Notes under the pieces: model-generated
Seen by the model: only the letters and a program-made list of their open reading frames with translations
What the model was told of the DNA's origin: nothing
Database searches by the model: none
Program-made: the position numbers and the translations under genes
Origin: Armatimonadota bacterium
GTDB lineage: Bacteria > Armatimonadota > DTGP01 > JAKQQT01
Direction: 5' to 3'
NCBI GenBank assembly: GCA_036504095.1
Contig: DASXVS010000024.1
Location: 145,257-209,256, forward strand
Length of the DNA stretch: 64,000 bases
In this document: positions 23,493-28,333 of the stretch, piece by piece
Numbering within the stretch: position 1 is the first letter of the stretch
Layout of the letters: every line of letters begins with the position of its first letter

Positions 23493-23819
23493 CTACACGT
23501 TGTCTGCAATCGACACATGCGTGACTGCCCCATCGGCGTCAGGCTTCTTGGGCCGGATGACGATCTCAACATCCTGGTCGAGCGCATTCAAGCACTGGAA
23601 CAGCCGTTCAAGCGTAAAGCCTTTCAGCCTCCCACGCGTGATGTCCGAGACGTTCGGCTGTGTAAGGCCAGTTCGACGGGCCGCCTGCGCTTGGGTCAAA
23701 CCCAAGGAGGCGATGACCTCGTGAATACGATAGGCAACGCGCGCCTTGGCCAGGCGCTCCTCTGGTTCCGGCAGACCGAGATCGGCGAAAACGTTACCGC
23801 TTCCTGTTGTGAACTCCAT
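23493..23819 (-). CDS. higA: HigA-like XRE-family HTH antitoxin
   Basis: HTH LTQAQAARRTGLTQPNVSDI. Immediately downstream of the toxin gene with a 1-nt overlap. Confidence 0.7.
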   Translation of the reverse strand: MEFTTGSGNVFADLGLPEPEERLAKARVAYRIHEVIASLGLTQAQAARRTGLTQPNVSDITRGRLKGFTLERLFQCLNALDQDVEIVIRPKKPDADGAVTHVSIADNV

Positions 23820-24208
23820 CAGACCCTACCCCCAAAGTGCTCAGAGTGGTGCTTCGCGGCGTCGGCCAGTCGTTGTCGGATCAGTGCGAGGTCGTGCTGG
23901 CTTGTCTTGCGCCCAACACGGCTCTTCTTCTGGAACGCGTGCAACACGTAGATCGCATCAGCGAATCTCACCGTGAACACGGTCCGGTATGTGTCCCCAT
24001 CAAAGTCGTCCCGGATCTCGAGGACGCTCGCTCCACCGAACCCGCGCAACGGCTTGACGTGAGGCGCCGTGCCACCCTCCTGGACGATCTGAAGGGCATA
24101 GCCGAAGGTATCCTTCACGTCCTCGGGCATCCGGCGCAGGTCGTCGAGGGGCGAGCCAAGCCAAATCAGCGGTCGGTCTGCATCCATTCCGTGTAGTGCA
24201 TCGCTCAA
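23819..24208 (-). CDS. higB: RelE/ParE-superfamily toxin (HigB/Gp49-like)
   Basis: KPL.GFGG.SVLEIR...YRTVF...IYVLHAFQKKS is the Gp49/HigB signature. Alternative start at internal MDADRP (24187). Confidence 0.7.
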   Translation of the reverse strand: MSDALHGMDADRPLIWLGSPLDDLRRMPEDVKDTFGYALQIVQEGGTAPHVKPLRGFGGASVLEIRDDFDGDTYRTVFTVRFADAIYVLHAFQKKSRVGRKTSQHDLALIRQRLADAAKHHSEHFGGRV

Positions 24209-25582: not shown

Positions 25583-25726
25583 GCGGGCCTCCTGAGGAGA
25601 TGATAGGTGGTATTTTCACCACGGAGGAAACGGAGTACACGGAGGTGCACGGAGGAATTCGATGTCTGAATTGATCCTCTATGAACCTCCGTGCCCTCAG
25701 TGTCCTCCGTGGTTCATTTCGGAGCC

Positions 25727-25843
25727 TACAGGGTTCGGCCCAGCGCTTCCGCCAGCGGTTTCAGTTCGCCCATCAGGCGGTTGAAGTCGCTGAACGTGAG
25801 GCTCTGCATGCCGTCTTTCAGCGCGGTCTTCGGCCTGTCTCAG
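25727..25843 (-). pseudogene. 3'-terminal remnant (~38 codons, no start) of a second DAHP synthase gene
   Basis: The minus strand reads DRPKTALKDGMQSLTFSDFNRLMGELKPLAEALGRTL*. The C-terminus of the intact DAHP synthase at 27311.. reads NPKTALKDGMQSLTFSDFRRLMGELKPLVEALGRTM*. The two share ~80% nucleotide identity over ~110 bp, and a stop codon lies immediately upstream of the remnant. Confidence 0.8.
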
Positions 25844-26727
25844 TCTGCTGCGGGAGACACAGAGCCATCCTGATTGCTCGAAAGCAACCATTCGCCCGAC
25901 GCAGGATCATTCTCAATGAGCCCCTTCTTCTTCAGGGCCTGTTGCGCATGTCGCAACCGGTGTTGCCAAATCACGCGGCGATCTCCGCTGATGATCCGGG
26001 AAACTGAGTCGTCGCACAGATCTGGATGGATAGCAGGGACCATCTCGTAGAGGTCCTGCGTTGACAGACGGCGATCCGACAACAAGTAGAGTACCGTGTC
26101 AGCGAAAATGCTCTGCAGGGATCTGCCCTTTAGGCGGATACGGACGAGGTCGTCTTGAGCGTTCTGCCGCAATTCCGACGACGCGGCTCGAAGTTTCGCC
26201 CTGATTGACCTCTGTTCTTCGGAAACGGCAACGCGGATTTCGGTCACTTGGCTCTGAAGACTCAGCAAACGATCTGGGCTGACCAATCCGCCAAGCCGAG
26301 CGTAGCGCCGTATGTCGTGGTTTACGCGCTTCACGACTGACTCTTCAGTCACCCGCACGCCATACTCGAGGTTGCCTCGGAACCCGCCCTCTGTGAAGTT
26401 CGCAGAGCCGATCAATGCCAAAGAGTCTCCGGAAGTGAACACCTTGGCGTGAATACGTGGCAGGTAGATTAGTCGCGTCTTCGGCAGATGCTCGCACAGA
26501 TAGATTAACGCCGCGACATCGGTGCTTCCCTGGACCAAGTTGGATGCCGAGATGTCCGTGACAACAGTCACAGATACAGCATTCTGCGCACCCTTTTCAC
26601 GGACTCCATCTACCAACAGGCGCATTGGGCCTTGCGTGATGTATGGGGAGCAGATTACGCAGCGCGTCTGGACGCTGTCGATGAACGCGCCGAATGCCGA
26701 CGCAAACGGCGAGGCCATTAGTTCCAA
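25840..26727 (-). CDS. phospholipase-D-family nuclease with a single HKD motif, a coiled-coil middle region and a C-terminal putative winged-helix domain
   Basis: HKD motif IHAKVFTSGDSLALIGSANFT (HxKx4Dx6GSxN). C-terminal LYEMV...VIWQHRLRHAQQALKKKGLIE. Local GC is lower than the flanks. Confidence 0.7.
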   Translation of the reverse strand: MELMASPFASAFGAFIDSVQTRCVICSPYITQGPMRLLVDGVREKGAQNAVSVTVVTDISASNLVQGSTDVAALIYLCEHLPKTRLIYLPRIHAKVFTSGDSLALIGSANFTEGGFRGNLEYGVRVTEESVVKRVNHDIRRYARLGGLVSPDRLLSLQSQVTEIRVAVSEEQRSIRAKLRAASSELRQNAQDDLVRIRLKGRSLQSIFADTVLYLLSDRRLSTQDLYEMVPAIHPDLCDDSVSRIISGDRRVIWQHRLRHAQQALKKKGLIENDPASGEWLLSSNQDGSVSPAAD

Positions 26728-26892
26728 TGGTGTTTAACCTCTCGGTCCGGATTTAGCGGTTAGTTGTGTGTGTCCACCGCTCGGTCAGCGGTTTGGCAGG
26801 CATCTCCCGAGAATCGGCGTGGCCGATCCTGACGCTCAATGTGCTGCGCCAACGAGACTCCCCCCACGGCGGAACAAGCGCAAGATCCGTGC

Positions 26893-27138
26893 TCATTCAC
26901 CAAAGACGACTTCCACCGGTTCCTCTTCGAGGATGGACACGGCGACCTCATCGTCCAATTCGCCCTCCAAGTCGTCGTTCAGATCGACTACGACCGTTCC
27001 ATCCTCGGTCTCAAATTCCGTCCATACGTCCCCCATCGAGTCGTAATGGTCGCAAATCAGAATCCCATCTTCCCCGAGTACTAACGTCGCTCGGTCTACT
27101 TCCACGCAGGCACCGGGCTTGAGGATGATCCTTGCCAT
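26893..27138 (-). CDS. small (81 aa) highly acidic protein (D/E-rich C-terminal half)
   Basis: AGGAGGAG RBS 5 nt before the ATG. Sequence MARIILKPGACVEVDRATLVLGEDGILICDHYDSMGDVWTEFETEDGTVVVDLNDDLEGELDDEVAVSILEEEPVEVVFGE. Same strand and immediately upstream of the PLD nuclease. Confidence 0.6.
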   Translation of the reverse strand: MARIILKPGACVEVDRATLVLGEDGILICDHYDSMGDVWTEFETEDGTVVVDLNDDLEGELDDEVAVSILEEEPVEVVFGE

Positions 27139-27310
27139 GCTTCTTCTCCTCCTAGACTGTGCCCAGAGGTGAAGCCGCCGCGCTCGATCCGCTGTTTTCA
27201 GCGCGATTGTAACGCCCGCTGAGCGGCCGTATTATGACATAGTGCCGAGCGCCATGGCAAGGTGATTGTTCGTCTGCACGTCCCCGCGGCCTCCGCGTTG
27301 AAACCGCAGC

Positions 27311-28333
27311 CTACATGGTTCGTCCAAGCGCTTCCACCAGGGGTTTCAGTTCGCCCATCAACCTCCTGAAATCCGAGAAGGTGAGGCTCTGCATGCCGTC
27401 CTTGAGGGCGGTTTTCGGGTTGGGGTGGGTTTCGATCATCACGCAGTCGGCGCCGGCGGCCAGGGCGGCCTTGGTGCTGCCGCCAACCAGTTGCCAGCGG
27501 CCCGTTCCGTGGCTGGCGTCGCCGCAGATCGGCAGGTGGCTGCGCATGGCGACCTCGCCGATGGCGTTCACGTCCAGTACGTTGCGGTACGCCGTCTCAA
27601 ACGTGCGAATGCCGCGTTCGCAGAGGATGATGTCGTAGTTGCCGCGGCTGGCGATGTATTCCGCCGCCTGCAGCCACTCCTCGATGGTGCTGGCCATCCC
27701 ACGCTTCAGCATCGCCGGGATGCGCGTCTGGCCGATCTCCTTCAGAAGGCTGAAGTTGGACATGTTGCGCGTGCCGATCTGGAAGATGTCCGTGTACTCT
27801 CCCACCAGTTCCACGTCGCGCGTGTCCATCACCTCTGTAATGATGGGCAGTCCGGTCTCCTGCTTGGCTTCGCGGAGCAGTTTCAGGCCCTCGATGCCCA
27901 TGCCGTGGAAGGAGTACGGCGAGGTGCTGGGCTTGTACGCGCCGCCGCGCAGGATGCGCGCTCCCGCGGCCTTGACCACTCGCGCCGCCTCAAGGATCAT
28001 CTCGGGGCTCTCGACCGTACACGGCCCCGCCATGACGACGACCTCCGGTCCCCCGATCTTCACGCCGCACACGTCAATGACCGTTTTCTCCGGGTGGAAA
28101 TCGCGGTTGACGAGTTTGTACGGCTTCGCGACGATGACCACGTCCTCGACCTGCGGCAGGCCGATCAACTGGTCCTTCAGGACGTTCTTGTCCTTGTCCG
28201 TGAGGCCGACGGCGCCCATGATGGTCTTCTCCGCCCCCTGCGAAAGGTGGATGGAGAATCCCTGGCTTTCGAGAAAGGCTCTGACCTCCTGTATCTCCCC
28301 TTCTCCTGCACCTGTTTTCAGAATGACAATCAT
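27311..28333 (-). CDS. aroF: 3-deoxy-7-phosphoheptulonate (DAHP) synthase, type I-beta, with an N-terminal regulatory domain
   Basis: KPYKLVNRDFHPEKTVIDV...VMAGPCTVES...GAYKPSTSPYSFHGMG...ICGDASHGTGR are DAHP-synthase signatures. Confidence 0.85.
   Translation of the reverse strand: MIVILKTGAGEGEIQEVRAFLESQGFSIHLSQGAEKTIMGAVGLTDKDKNVLKDQLIGLPQVEDVVIVAKPYKLVNRDFHPEKTVIDVCGVKIGGPEVVVMAGPCTVESPEMILEAARVVKAAGARILRGGAYKPSTSPYSFHGMGIEGLKLLREAKQETGLPIITEVMDTRDVELVGEYTDIFQIGTRNMSNFSLLKEIGQTRIPAMLKRGMASTIEEWLQAAEYIASRGNYDIILCERGIRTFETAYRNVLDVNAIGEVAMRSHLPICGDASHGTGRWQLVGGSTKAALAAGADCVMIETHPNPKTALKDGMQSLTFSDFRRLMGELKPLVEALGRTM

What the first reader, a model, noticed from the sequence alone, without database searches (positions are those of the whole stretch)
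25840..27138. Operon of a tiny acidic protein followed by a single-HKD PLD-family nuclease: candidate nuclease-inhibitor (toxin-immunity or defence) pair
The nuclease has one HxKx4Dx6GSxN motif, so it presumably acts as a dimer in the manner of Nuc/BfiI. It also has a coiled-coil stretch and a C-terminal region resembling a winged-helix DNA-binding domain. The 81-aa protein is encoded immediately upstream on the same strand behind a strong RBS, and its C-terminal half is extremely D/E-rich. That composition suits a DNA mimic, an inhibitor or an antitoxin. Together with the islet context, this looks like a compact defence or addiction module of a kind I cannot place in a described family.
Basis: partly seen in the sequence, partly recalled or inferred. 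Interest (0 to 1): 0.75.

Follow-up and report, generated by a model that had tools for sequence, protein, structure and literature searches.

The report
Mobile PLD nuclease with acidic partner
A 1.5-kb piece of foreign DNA inserted into the end of an amino-acid biosynthesis gene carries a restriction-type DNA-cutting enzyme and a tiny, very acidic protein. Relatives of the enzyme in other bacteria sit next to unrelated small acidic proteins, so the small protein may hold the nuclease in check.

Summary
Both ORFs are real and lie on the minus strand: an 81-aa ORF (26893-27138; 30% D/E, net charge about -21) and a 295-aa PLD gene (25840-26727). They are 165 nt apart, not adjacent.

The large protein is a single-HKD PLD nuclease domain, then one 49-residue helix, then a winged-helix domain resembling Mrr_N (AF2 pLDDT 91; best fold matches Nuc and NucT). 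It belongs to a well-conserved family found in at least 342 species' genomes across many phyla. The gene sits in low-GC islets, often beside N4/N6 DNA methylases, MTaX1-HNH or Mrr-type nucleases. A "PLD-wH" architecture has been published as a putative type IV restriction enzyme that is toxic and could not be expressed in E. coli.

The small protein is an ORFan. Even so, PLD clades elsewhere carry their own unrelated small acidic partners. One of these (c2, 91 homologues) overlaps the stop codon of the PLD gene.

The two genes form a 1,471-bp low-GC insert between two 114-nt copies (82% identical) of the 3' end of the DAHP synthase gene.

Verdict: the pairing idea is partly supported. This is a new variant of a known kind, of moderate interest.

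The parts
25618..25713 (-). Long, very stable hairpin just downstream of the displaced DAHP synthase 3' end. It is probably the host gene's original terminator-like element and now closes the islet transcription unit.
   Evidence: Inverted repeat with 39-nt arms. RNA fold -62.8 kcal/mol, z = -7.3. No Rfam family matches it.
25720..25833 (-). Direct repeat copy A: a displaced, promoterless remnant of the last 36 codons of the DAHP synthase gene. Its codon composition is host-like (GC3 0.86).
   Evidence: 114 nt, 82% identical to 27305-27418; translates to PKTALKDGMQSLTFSDFNRLMGELKPLAEALGRTL*; 21 identical codons, 12 synonymous differences and 3 replacement differences.
25840..26727 (-). Gene for a 295-aa nuclease made of a PLD domain (single HKD), a long helix and a winged helix. 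The start is TTG, supported by alignment with homologues that begin M-x-[DE]-L-[LI]-x-S-P-F.
26728..26892 (-). 165-nt spacer between the two genes. No terminator or promoter consensus and no significant structure were found. It contains a doubtful 47-codon ORF.
26893..27138 (-). 81-aa highly acidic ORFan, the candidate partner or regulator of the nuclease.
   Evidence: composition, codon score. (no homologues). (no family match).
27148..27153 (-). Shine-Dalgarno box AGGAGG, ending 9 nt upstream of the ATG of the small ORF.
   Evidence: Read from the sequence.
27231..27260 (-). Sigma-70-like promoter inside the islet: TTGCCA, 18-nt spacer, CATAAT with a TG extension (10 of 12 positions match). 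It lies upstream of the small ORF.
   Evidence: This is a consensus match only.
27305..27418 (-). Direct repeat copy B: the 3' end that now completes the intact DAHP synthase gene (27311-28333). Its GC3 (0.78) is lower than copy A's, so it was probably brought in with the islet.

Best explanation
The region is a 1.5-kb, horizontally acquired two-gene mini-islet inserted into the 3' end of the DAHP synthase gene.

The main gene encodes a restriction-type DNA endonuclease. An N-terminal single-HKD PLD domain must pair with a second copy to build one active site, as in Nuc and BfiI. A long helix probably holds or spaces the dimer. A C-terminal winged helix resembling Mrr_N directs the enzyme to DNA, most likely to modified or foreign DNA.

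The upstream 81-aa acidic protein is most likely co-transcribed from the islet's own promoter, or by read-through from the DAHP synthase gene. I infer that it binds the basic nuclease, at its DNA-binding surfaces, and restrains or regulates it. This would resemble an immunity protein, an antitoxin or a DNA mimic.

Shown: the domain architecture, family membership, foreign origin, flanking repeats, and the recurrence of non-homologous small acidic partners in other clades.

Inferred: dimerisation, DNA cleavage, dependence on DNA modification, and any physical or inhibitory interaction with the small protein.
For: Nuclease identity:
- PLDc_2 scores above the Pfam cut-off.
- The catalytic H, K, S, N and E residues sit in family-invariant alignment columns.
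- The AF2 model has pLDDT 91. Foldseek finds NucT, Nuc (TM 0.77 normalised to the target), the SauUSI nuclease domain, Zucchini and BfiI.
- The C-terminal domain folds as a winged helix. Mrr_N matches 9 of 20 family members.

Restriction or defence role:
- Relatives occur in 342 species' genomes spread patchily over many phyla.
- Neighbours recur: N6_N4 methylase in about 17 of 80 loci, MTaX1-HNH in about 18, and an Mrr_cat protein in 8.
- The modules are much lower in GC than their flanks in nearly every locus examined.
- PMC11037411 reports PLD-wH fusions from Anaerolineaceae and Chloroflexi as toxic putative type IV enzymes.

Mobility:
- 114-nt direct repeats flank the insert.
- Direct repeats that duplicate the end of a neighbouring gene also flank the PLD module in L016 (ahcY 3' end) and L074 (carB 5' end), and they abut neighbouring genes in L067 and L029.
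- This matches 'insertion with long target duplication', described for restriction-modification units (PMC2853133).

Partner:
- 18 of 81 loci have an adjacent same-strand small ORF that is net acidic, against 1.6% of all small ORFs in those loci.
- The c2 family has 91 homologues. Three of three tested on long contigs overlap the stop codon of the PLD gene.
- The two closest relatives share an acidic 83-94-aa ORF that starts 22-26 nt downstream of the PLD gene.
- The partner family tracks the PLD clade.
- The nuclease is basic (pI 8.7) and the small protein has a net charge of about -21.
- There is a precedent of an HKD nuclease paired with a rapidly evolving small regulatory protein: PbeA and PbeB (PMC10853773).
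Against: - The 81-aa protein has no homologue in 1.8 billion representative proteins, apart from weak matches to repeat units. Its function therefore cannot be inferred from conservation, and it could even be non-coding.
- It is 165 nt from the nuclease gene, with no translational coupling.
- In the sister clade (group 14) most members show no recognisable partner. Several relatives are solitary, so the nuclease can evidently exist alone.
- Profile comparison finds no relation between the window's small protein and the other partner families.
- The winged helix shows no specific similarity to the DpnI 6mA-sensor domain, so dependence on DNA modification is a guess.
- Methylase adjacency in some clades could instead mean classical type II behaviour there.
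- No empty insertion site was found.
Confidence: 0.5

Rival explanations
1. The enzyme is a solitary modification-dependent (type IV-like) PLD-wH restriction enzyme that needs no partner. The 81-aa ORF is either an unrelated passenger gene of the islet or not a gene at all.
For: - The ORF is an ORFan.
- A 165-nt gap separates it from the nuclease gene.
- Four frames are open over this stretch, and an antisense frame scores almost as well on codon usage.
- Many family members, including close relatives, are solitary.
- PMC11037411 treats PLD-wH enzymes as single-chain type IV enzymes.
Against: - The ORF has a strong Shine-Dalgarno box and a promoter-like site, and its frame scores best of the six.
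- Its GC3 equals that of the PLD gene.
- Small acidic partners recur in several other clades, one of them translationally coupled.
- The PLD-wH enzymes tested in PMC11037411 were toxic or could not be expressed on their own.
Confidence: 0.3
2. The pair is a classical addiction (toxin-antitoxin) module. Its main effect would be post-segregational killing that stabilises the islet, rather than phage defence. The labile acidic protein would be the antitoxin and the nuclease the toxin.
For: - The layout is small upstream gene followed by a larger toxic enzyme.
- The unit is mobile and selfish, as shown by the direct repeats and low GC.
- A Gp49/HTH_37 toxin-antitoxin pair lies 1.6 kb away.
- Restriction systems are known to behave as addiction modules (PMC3874152, title and abstract as listed).
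Against: - The small protein has no DNA-binding or antitoxin fold signature.
- In other clades the partner is often downstream.
- The family's neighbours are restriction-modification components.
- No hit was found in 72,556 plasmid records, where addiction modules abound.
Confidence: 0.1
3. The islet is a decayed remnant of a larger integrative element or restriction-modification system whose integrase and/or methylase has been lost. The nuclease would be an inactive relic.
For: - The direct repeats duplicate a gene's 3' end, as at sites used by integrases, yet the islet has no recombinase.
- The two repeat copies differ mostly at synonymous sites, which implies an older or imported copy.
- In one relative a 77-aa ORF upstream of the PLD gene reads, by eye, like the N-terminus of a Dam-type methylase. 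This was not tested against a profile.
Against: - The nuclease ORF is intact, and every residue that is invariant across 90 homologues is present.
- Only 1,471 bp lie between intact repeats.
- Two-gene islets of the same size recur in many genomes.
Confidence: 0.1

Closest known systems
PLD-wH fusion endonucleases Aba4572I and CbaI (Front Microbiol 2024, PMC11037411)
   Same: - N-terminal PLD nuclease plus C-terminal winged helix.
- Source organisms are Anaerolineaceae and Chloroflexi, the taxa that dominate the homologue list here.
- Neighbours are described as an amino-methylase, a 'restriction endonuclease' and 'hypothetical proteins'. This matches the methylase, Mrr_cat and small-ORF neighbours seen here.
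- Both were toxic in E. coli and could not be expressed.
   Different: - Their sequences are not in the text or supplements held, so homology could not be verified.
- That family was defined through DpnI-like 6mA-sensing winged helices, and only 27 members were reported. The domain here matches Mrr_N and not DpnI.
- No partner protein was proposed in that paper.
Nuc (Salmonella) and NucT (Helicobacter), single-HKD PLD nucleases
   Same: - Best structural matches (Foldseek E about 3e-8; TM 0.69-0.77 normalised to the target).
- One HKD motif per chain, so dimerisation is needed to form one active site.
   Different: Nuc and NucT are roughly 150-160-aa stand-alone, non-specific nucleases. They have no helix or winged-helix extension.
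BfiI and NgoAVII, type II restriction enzymes of the PLD family
   Same: A PLD catalytic domain is fused to a C-terminal DNA-recognition domain. The RE_NgoFVII Pfam model gives a weak hit (18.8 bits).
   Different: - Their DNA-binding domain is B3-like, not a winged helix.
- They come with a cognate methylase, and the window's islet has none.
- The Pfam score is below the cut-off of 23.8 bits.
PbeA (HKD nuclease-helicase) with PbeB, a rapidly evolving small protein (PMC10853773)
   Same: An HKD nuclease effector is accompanied by a fast-evolving small protein that is predicted to be a negative regulator or a sensor of the virus.
   Different: - PbeA is a large helicase fusion within a four-gene system built around an ABC ATPase.
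- The PADLOC PbeA hit here is only a generic PLD match (E = 0.0056).
Nuclease-inhibitor pairs: colicin E DNase with Im proteins, barnase with barstar (from general knowledge)
   Same: A small acidic protein neutralises a basic nuclease encoded beside it.
   Different: - There is no sequence or fold relationship.
- Those nucleases are secreted toxins.
- Inhibition is unproven here.
Restriction-modification units inserted with long target duplication (PMC2853133)
   Same: A short insert without mobility genes is flanked by direct repeats of tens to hundreds of bp. The repeats overlap the 3' end of a host gene, and the insert's GC differs from the genome's. This has been reported for type I to type IV systems.
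   Different: The repeats here are only 82% identical and differ mostly at synonymous sites. One copy therefore seems to have come from another lineage rather than from a fresh duplication.

Membership tests
PLD superfamily, nuclease branch (Nuc/BfiI-like) | HxK ... GSxN catalytic motif and a Pfam PLDc_2 match above the gathering score | tested here: met
   H93, K95, S108, N110 and E121 are present and occupy family-invariant alignment columns. PLDc_2 scores 45.3 bits against a cut-off of 27.
PLD superfamily, nuclease branch (Nuc/BfiI-like) | PLD alpha/beta fold closest to the nuclease members | tested here: met
   AF2 pLDDT 91. Top Foldseek hits are NucT 6ehi, Nuc 1byr, SauUSI 7clg, Zucchini and BfiI 2c1l.
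PLD superfamily, nuclease branch (Nuc/BfiI-like) | Homodimer forming one active site, and metal-independent DNA cleavage | not testable with these tools
   Only a monomer model could be built. No biochemistry was possible.
PLD-wH type IV endonucleases (PMC11037411) | PLD nuclease domain fused to a C-terminal winged helix | tested here: met
PLD-wH type IV endonucleases (PMC11037411) | Winged helix related to the DpnI 6mA/GATC sensor | tested here: not met
   No Pfam family other than PLDc_2, RE_NgoFVII, Mrr_N and TBCC_N matched at E <= 1. No DpnI chain matched in the PDB sequence search at E <= 10. No DpnI entry appears in the top 50 Foldseek hits, which are generic winged-helix proteins such as PadR, Zur and IclR.
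PLD-wH type IV endonucleases (PMC11037411) | Sequence homology to Aba4572I or CbaI | not testable with these tools
   The sequences are absent from the paper, the preprint and the supplements. Names of cluster members gave no link.
PLD-wH type IV endonucleases (PMC11037411) | Methylation-dependent toxicity or cleavage | not testable with these tools
   This needs an experiment.
DISARM DrmC | NCBIfam or PADLOC DrmC model above its cut-off, and DrmA/DrmB/methylase neighbours | tested here: not met
   NF038319 scores 48.9 bits against a cut-off of 133. The islet contains only two genes.
Mrr-type type IV restriction enzymes | Mrr_N winged helix together with an Mrr_cat PD-(D/E)xK nuclease | tested here: not met
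   Mrr_N scores only 19-22 bits against a cut-off of 29.5, and there is no Mrr_cat domain. In 8 related loci Mrr_cat is a separate neighbouring protein.
Type II restriction-modification (BfiI/NgoAVII-like) | A cognate DNA methylase in the same unit | tested here: not met
   There is no methylase between the direct repeats. About 17 of 80 related loci do have an adjacent N6_N4 methylase.
Toxin-antitoxin or nuclease-immunity pair | A co-oriented adjacent small gene whose pairing with the toxin is conserved | tested here: inconclusive
   This small protein is an ORFan. Non-homologous small acidic partners recur with other clades, and c2 is coupled in three of three tested cases.
Toxin-antitoxin or nuclease-immunity pair | The small protein neutralises the toxicity of the large one | not testable with these tools
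   This needs co-expression or binding experiments, or multimer structure prediction.

The most novel reading that the evidence does not exclude
PLD-wH nucleases may in general be two-component systems. Each clade would have recruited its own fast-evolving small acidic protein, here an ORFan. That protein would occupy the enzyme's DNA-binding surfaces as a cognate inhibitor or DNA mimic, and the nuclease would be released on phage infection or on loss of the islet. If so, this would explain why the published PLD-wH enzymes were toxic and could not be expressed alone. It would also define a very compact (about 1.2-1.5 kb) self-mobile class of defence or addiction module that inserts at the ends of housekeeping genes.
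Probability: 0.25. Interest if true: 0.7.

Novelty: new variant of a known kind. Interest (0 to 1): 0.55.

Why it matters
If the small acidic proteins are cognate regulators, an enzyme class regarded as single-chain would become a two-component system, and a practical remedy for the expression failure reported in PMC11037411 would follow: co-express the neighbouring gene. It would also add a minimal nuclease-inhibitor module to the catalogue of defence systems.

Separately, the locus is a clean example of a two-gene restriction-type unit inserted into the 3' end of an essential biosynthetic gene. The insert supplies a replacement 3' end, with no recombinase gene present. This bears on the open question of how restriction genes move.

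If the small ORF proves irrelevant, the locus is simply a new member of a known family of restriction nucleases.

Tried and rejected
- Known families for the small protein. Pfam, PADLOC, NCBIfam and PHROGs gave nothing.
- Homologues of the small protein. The word-indexed search found only the protein itself. The exhaustive HMMER search added only matches to repeat units, whose scores are inflated by summing over repeats: a 508-aa protein with six repeats of a GADGILYCDHYDPTNGNWTW-like unit, and a 550-aa protein with tandem repeats of about 110 aa. I do not count these as homology.
- Relation between the small-partner families. hhalign of c2 and c15 against the window's protein and against each other gave nothing significant; the best result was E = 0.15.
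- DrmC, ZacB, MkoC, DpdK and PbeA. These were generic PLD hits far below family cut-offs, so I rejected membership.
- Link to the DpnI 6mA sensor. It was not found by sequence or by fold.
- Proof that the family is the published Aba4572I/CbaI family. No sequences were available. Locus L065 has a similar layout of an apparent aminoacyl-tRNA synthetase ORF (reads like glycyl-tRNA ligase; by eye, not profile-tested), Mrr_cat gene and PLD gene, but it is not the published locus.
- Empty insertion site. An exact-match scan of metagenome contigs found nothing. Eighty DAHP synthase loci (best 81% amino-acid identity) share no synteny with the window, and none carries the PLD gene.
- Second copies of the DAHP synthase C-terminus in L116, L118 and L119. 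These turned out to be tandem full-length paralogues, not islets.
- Plasmid and phage collections. No relative of the nuclease was found.
- Terminator or RNA element in the 165-nt spacer. None was found.
Full report
**What is at the coordinates.** Two co-oriented ORFs lie on the minus strand: an 81-aa ORF at 26893-27138 and a 295-aa ORF at 25840-26727. They are separated by 165 nt. The spacer has no terminator or promoter consensus and no significant RNA structure (z = -0.5). The small ORF has an AGGAGG box ending 9 nt before its ATG. A promoter-like site, TTGCCA-18-CATAAT with a TG extension, lies at 27231-27260. The protein has 24 D/E against 3 K/R, a net charge of about -21, and 41% D/E in its last 41 residues. 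Four frames are open over this stretch. The ORF's frame scores best on codon usage, but only narrowly ahead of an antisense frame. Its GC3 of 0.66 equals that of the PLD gene and is well below the 0.77-0.87 of host genes.

**The large protein.** Pfam PLDc_2 matches above its threshold (45.3 bits against 27). RE_NgoFVII and Mrr_N match below threshold. The motif is H93-A-K95-x5-D-x5-G-S108-A-N110. H, K, S, N and E121 occupy alignment columns that are invariant in 90 homologues, whereas the Asp is not conserved. An AF2 model built on that alignment has pLDDT 91. It shows a PLD alpha/beta domain at 1-149, a single helix at 151-199 and a winged helix at 204-282. Foldseek against the PDB returns NucT, Nuc (TM 0.77 normalised to the target), the SauUSI nuclease domain, Zucchini and BfiI. 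The helix has only weak heptad character. Modelled alone (pLDDT 83), the C-terminal domain matches generic winged-helix proteins such as PadR, Zur and IclR, not DpnI. Mrr_N matches 9 of 20 family members, best E-value 2.5e-6. DrmC, DpdK, ZacB, MkoC and PbeA give generic PLD hits far below family cut-offs.

**The family and its surroundings.** The word-indexed search found at least 196 full-length homologues of about 285-290 aa at 41-52% identity. A scan of one genome per species found relatives in 342 genomes. These span Acidobacteriota, Chloroflexota, Armatimonadota, Planctomycetota, Deltaproteobacteria, Nitrospirota, Zixibacteria and one archaeon. No relative occurs in the plasmid or phage collections.

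I clustered the neighbouring ORFs of 80 loci and scanned representatives against Pfam. The recurrent neighbours are:
- an N6_N4 DNA methylase, in about 17 loci;
- an MTaX1-HNH nuclease immediately downstream, in about 18 loci;
- a roughly 470-aa protein with a C-terminal Mrr_cat domain immediately upstream, in 8 loci.

In nearly all loci the PLD module is much lower in GC than its flanks, for example 0.39 against about 0.6. This is the signature of a restriction-type, horizontally mobile gene, not a housekeeping PLD.

**Published precedent.** PMC11037411 describes 'PLD-wH' fusion endonucleases, Aba4572I from an Anaerolineaceae bacterium and CbaI from a Chloroflexi bacterium, as putative 6mA-dependent type IV enzymes. 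They were toxic in E. coli and could not be over-expressed. Their listed neighbours were an amino-methylase, a 'restriction endonuclease' and 'hypothetical proteins'. Architecture, taxa and neighbourhoods fit the family studied here. I could not obtain those sequences, so identity is unproven. The winged helix here also shows no specific DpnI-like signal.

**The small protein and the pairing hypothesis.** The 81-aa protein matches no profile library. Its only homologue in the 5.8-billion-sequence search is itself, from an Armatimonadota MAG. An exhaustive HMMER search of 1.84 billion representatives adds only weak matches to repeat units, which I discount. This specific pair is therefore not conserved. 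At the level of the family, however, small co-oriented partner ORFs recur, and each belongs to a particular PLD clade:
- c2: 65-81 aa, acidic, with CxxC...CxxC. It overlaps the PLD stop codon by 16-22 nt in the ORF calls, in 10 of 11 loci of one clade.
- c15: 90-106 aa, about 20% D/E, upstream, in Dehalococcoidia.
- c28: 95-110 aa, acidic, overlapping the PLD start codon.
- c3: 71 aa, Cys-rich, 11-17 nt upstream.
- An acidic 83-94-aa 'FYVAQLTI' ORF that starts 22-26 nt downstream of the PLD gene in the two closest relatives of the window's nuclease.

Overall, 18 of 81 loci have an adjacent same-strand small ORF that is net acidic, against 1.6% of all small ORFs in the same loci. That background is dominated by spurious ORFs, so the comparison is crude. 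The c2 family has 91 homologues. All three that I examined on long contigs overlap the 3' end of a roughly 287-aa PLDc_2 gene, forming two-gene islets between unrelated housekeeping genes.

The partner families are unrelated to one another and to the window's protein by profile comparison. Against the hypothesis, most members of the window's sister clade show no recognisable partner, and several relatives are solitary. There is a precedent for an HKD nuclease with a rapidly evolving small protein predicted to be a negative regulator: PbeA and PbeB (PMC10853773).

**The islet.** A 114-nt direct repeat (25720-25833 and 27305-27418, 82% identical) brackets the two genes. Copy B is the 3' end of the intact DAHP synthase gene (27311-28333; DAHP_synth_1 E-value 8e-73). 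Copy A is a displaced remnant that encodes the same 35-residue C-terminus with three substitutions. It starts 6 nt beyond the PLD stop codon and is followed by a very stable hairpin (-62.8 kcal/mol, z = -7.3).

Of the 36 codons, 21 are identical, 12 differ synonymously and 3 differ by replacement. The synonymous set includes AGC/TCG and CGC/AGG switches. The two copies therefore diverged as functional coding sequences in different lineages. Copy A has host-like GC3 (0.86) and copy B has 0.78, so the islet probably supplied the replacement 3' end.

Direct repeats that duplicate the end of a neighbouring gene also flank PLD modules in L016 (56 nt, ahcY 3' end, islet GC 0.39 against 0.61) and L074 (90 nt, carB 5' end). 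Repeats that abut neighbouring genes flank them in L067 (71 nt) and L029 (29 nt). This resembles the 'insertion with long target duplication' reported for type I to type IV restriction systems (PMC2853133). Integration by a recombinase acting in trans is an alternative. I could not find an empty site.

**Mechanism and verdict.** The best-supported reading has three parts:
- The large protein is a dimeric PLD-wH restriction-type endonuclease. I put high confidence on the fold and the family, and low confidence on its specificity.
- It is carried on a self-contained mobile mini-islet.
- The upstream acidic ORFan plausibly acts as its regulator or inhibitor. I put the probability of this at about 0.4-0.5, resting on analogy with partner proteins in other clades and on charge complementarity (nuclease pI 8.7).

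The main rival is that the nuclease is a solitary type IV-like enzyme and the ORFan is irrelevant. The nuclease call and the islet context are right, and the pairing idea gains unexpected comparative support. However, this small protein is not conserved and not adjacent, and the nuclease architecture has already been described. I rate the locus a new variant of a known kind, with moderate interest (0.55).

Noticed in passing
window 23493-24208 (minus strand): A toxin-antitoxin pair of HigB/HigA type. A 129-aa Gp49/DUF891 toxin (E = 2e-24) is followed, with a 1-nt overlap, by a 108-aa HTH_37 antitoxin (E = 8e-26). It lies 1.6 kb from the PLD islet, beyond the GHL10 gene.
   Followed up: partly
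window 25618-25713: A near-perfect 39-nt-arm hairpin (-62.8 kcal/mol, z = -7.3) rich in CACGGAGG-like units, with no U-tract and no Rfam match. It could be the original DAHP synthase terminator or a palindromic repeat element.
   Followed up: partly
window 26753-26896 (minus strand): A 47-codon ORF whose ATG overlaps the stop codon of the acidic ORF (ATGA). It ends 25 nt before the PLD start codon. Its GC2 of 0.60 is atypical of real genes, so it is probably non-coding.
   Followed up: partly
window 26893-27138, residues 16-39 of the small protein: The segment LVLGEDGILICDHYDSMGDVWT resembles a unit (GADGILYCDHYDPTNGNWTW) repeated six times in a 508-aa metagenomic protein, P0122. This may be chance, or a hint that the N-terminal half forms a beta-hairpin.
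   Followed up: no
L170 3623-3856 and L171 686-919: Upstream of a close PLD relative (51% identity), between queF and queC, lies a 77-aa ORF that reads like the N-terminus of a Dam-type (D12 class) adenine methylase. It may be a decayed methylase beside a putative methyl-directed nuclease. I judged this by eye and did not test it against a profile.
   Followed up: no
L015, L033, L034, L074 (about 0.4-0.9 kb downstream of the PLD gene): In four unrelated taxa the PLD module sits next to carB. In three of them (L033, L034, L074) it lies just upstream of the carB start, and in L074 with a 90-nt duplication of the carB 5' end. This may be a recurrent insertion hotspot.
   Followed up: partly
L023, L040, L045, L058, L068 and related loci: One PLD clade shows a conserved operon of up to four genes: N6_N4 methylase, small Cys-rich protein (c3), PLD-wH, MTaX1-HNH. 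All four are present in L058 and L068. L023, L040 and L045 show the same layout without a detected c3. This looks like a distinct multi-component restriction system that I could not find described.
   Followed up: partly
L116 2300-4500; L118; L119 3926-6115: Some genomes carry two full-length DAHP synthase paralogues in tandem (about 83% DNA identity over 300 nt). This is unrelated to the islet.
   Followed up: yes
L084 3863-4878: Upstream of another close PLD relative lie an HTH_31 gene (72 aa), whose position suggests a controller protein, and a 263-aa ORF with a D...ExK-like motif. This suggests a restriction cluster regulated by a controller protein.
   Followed up: no
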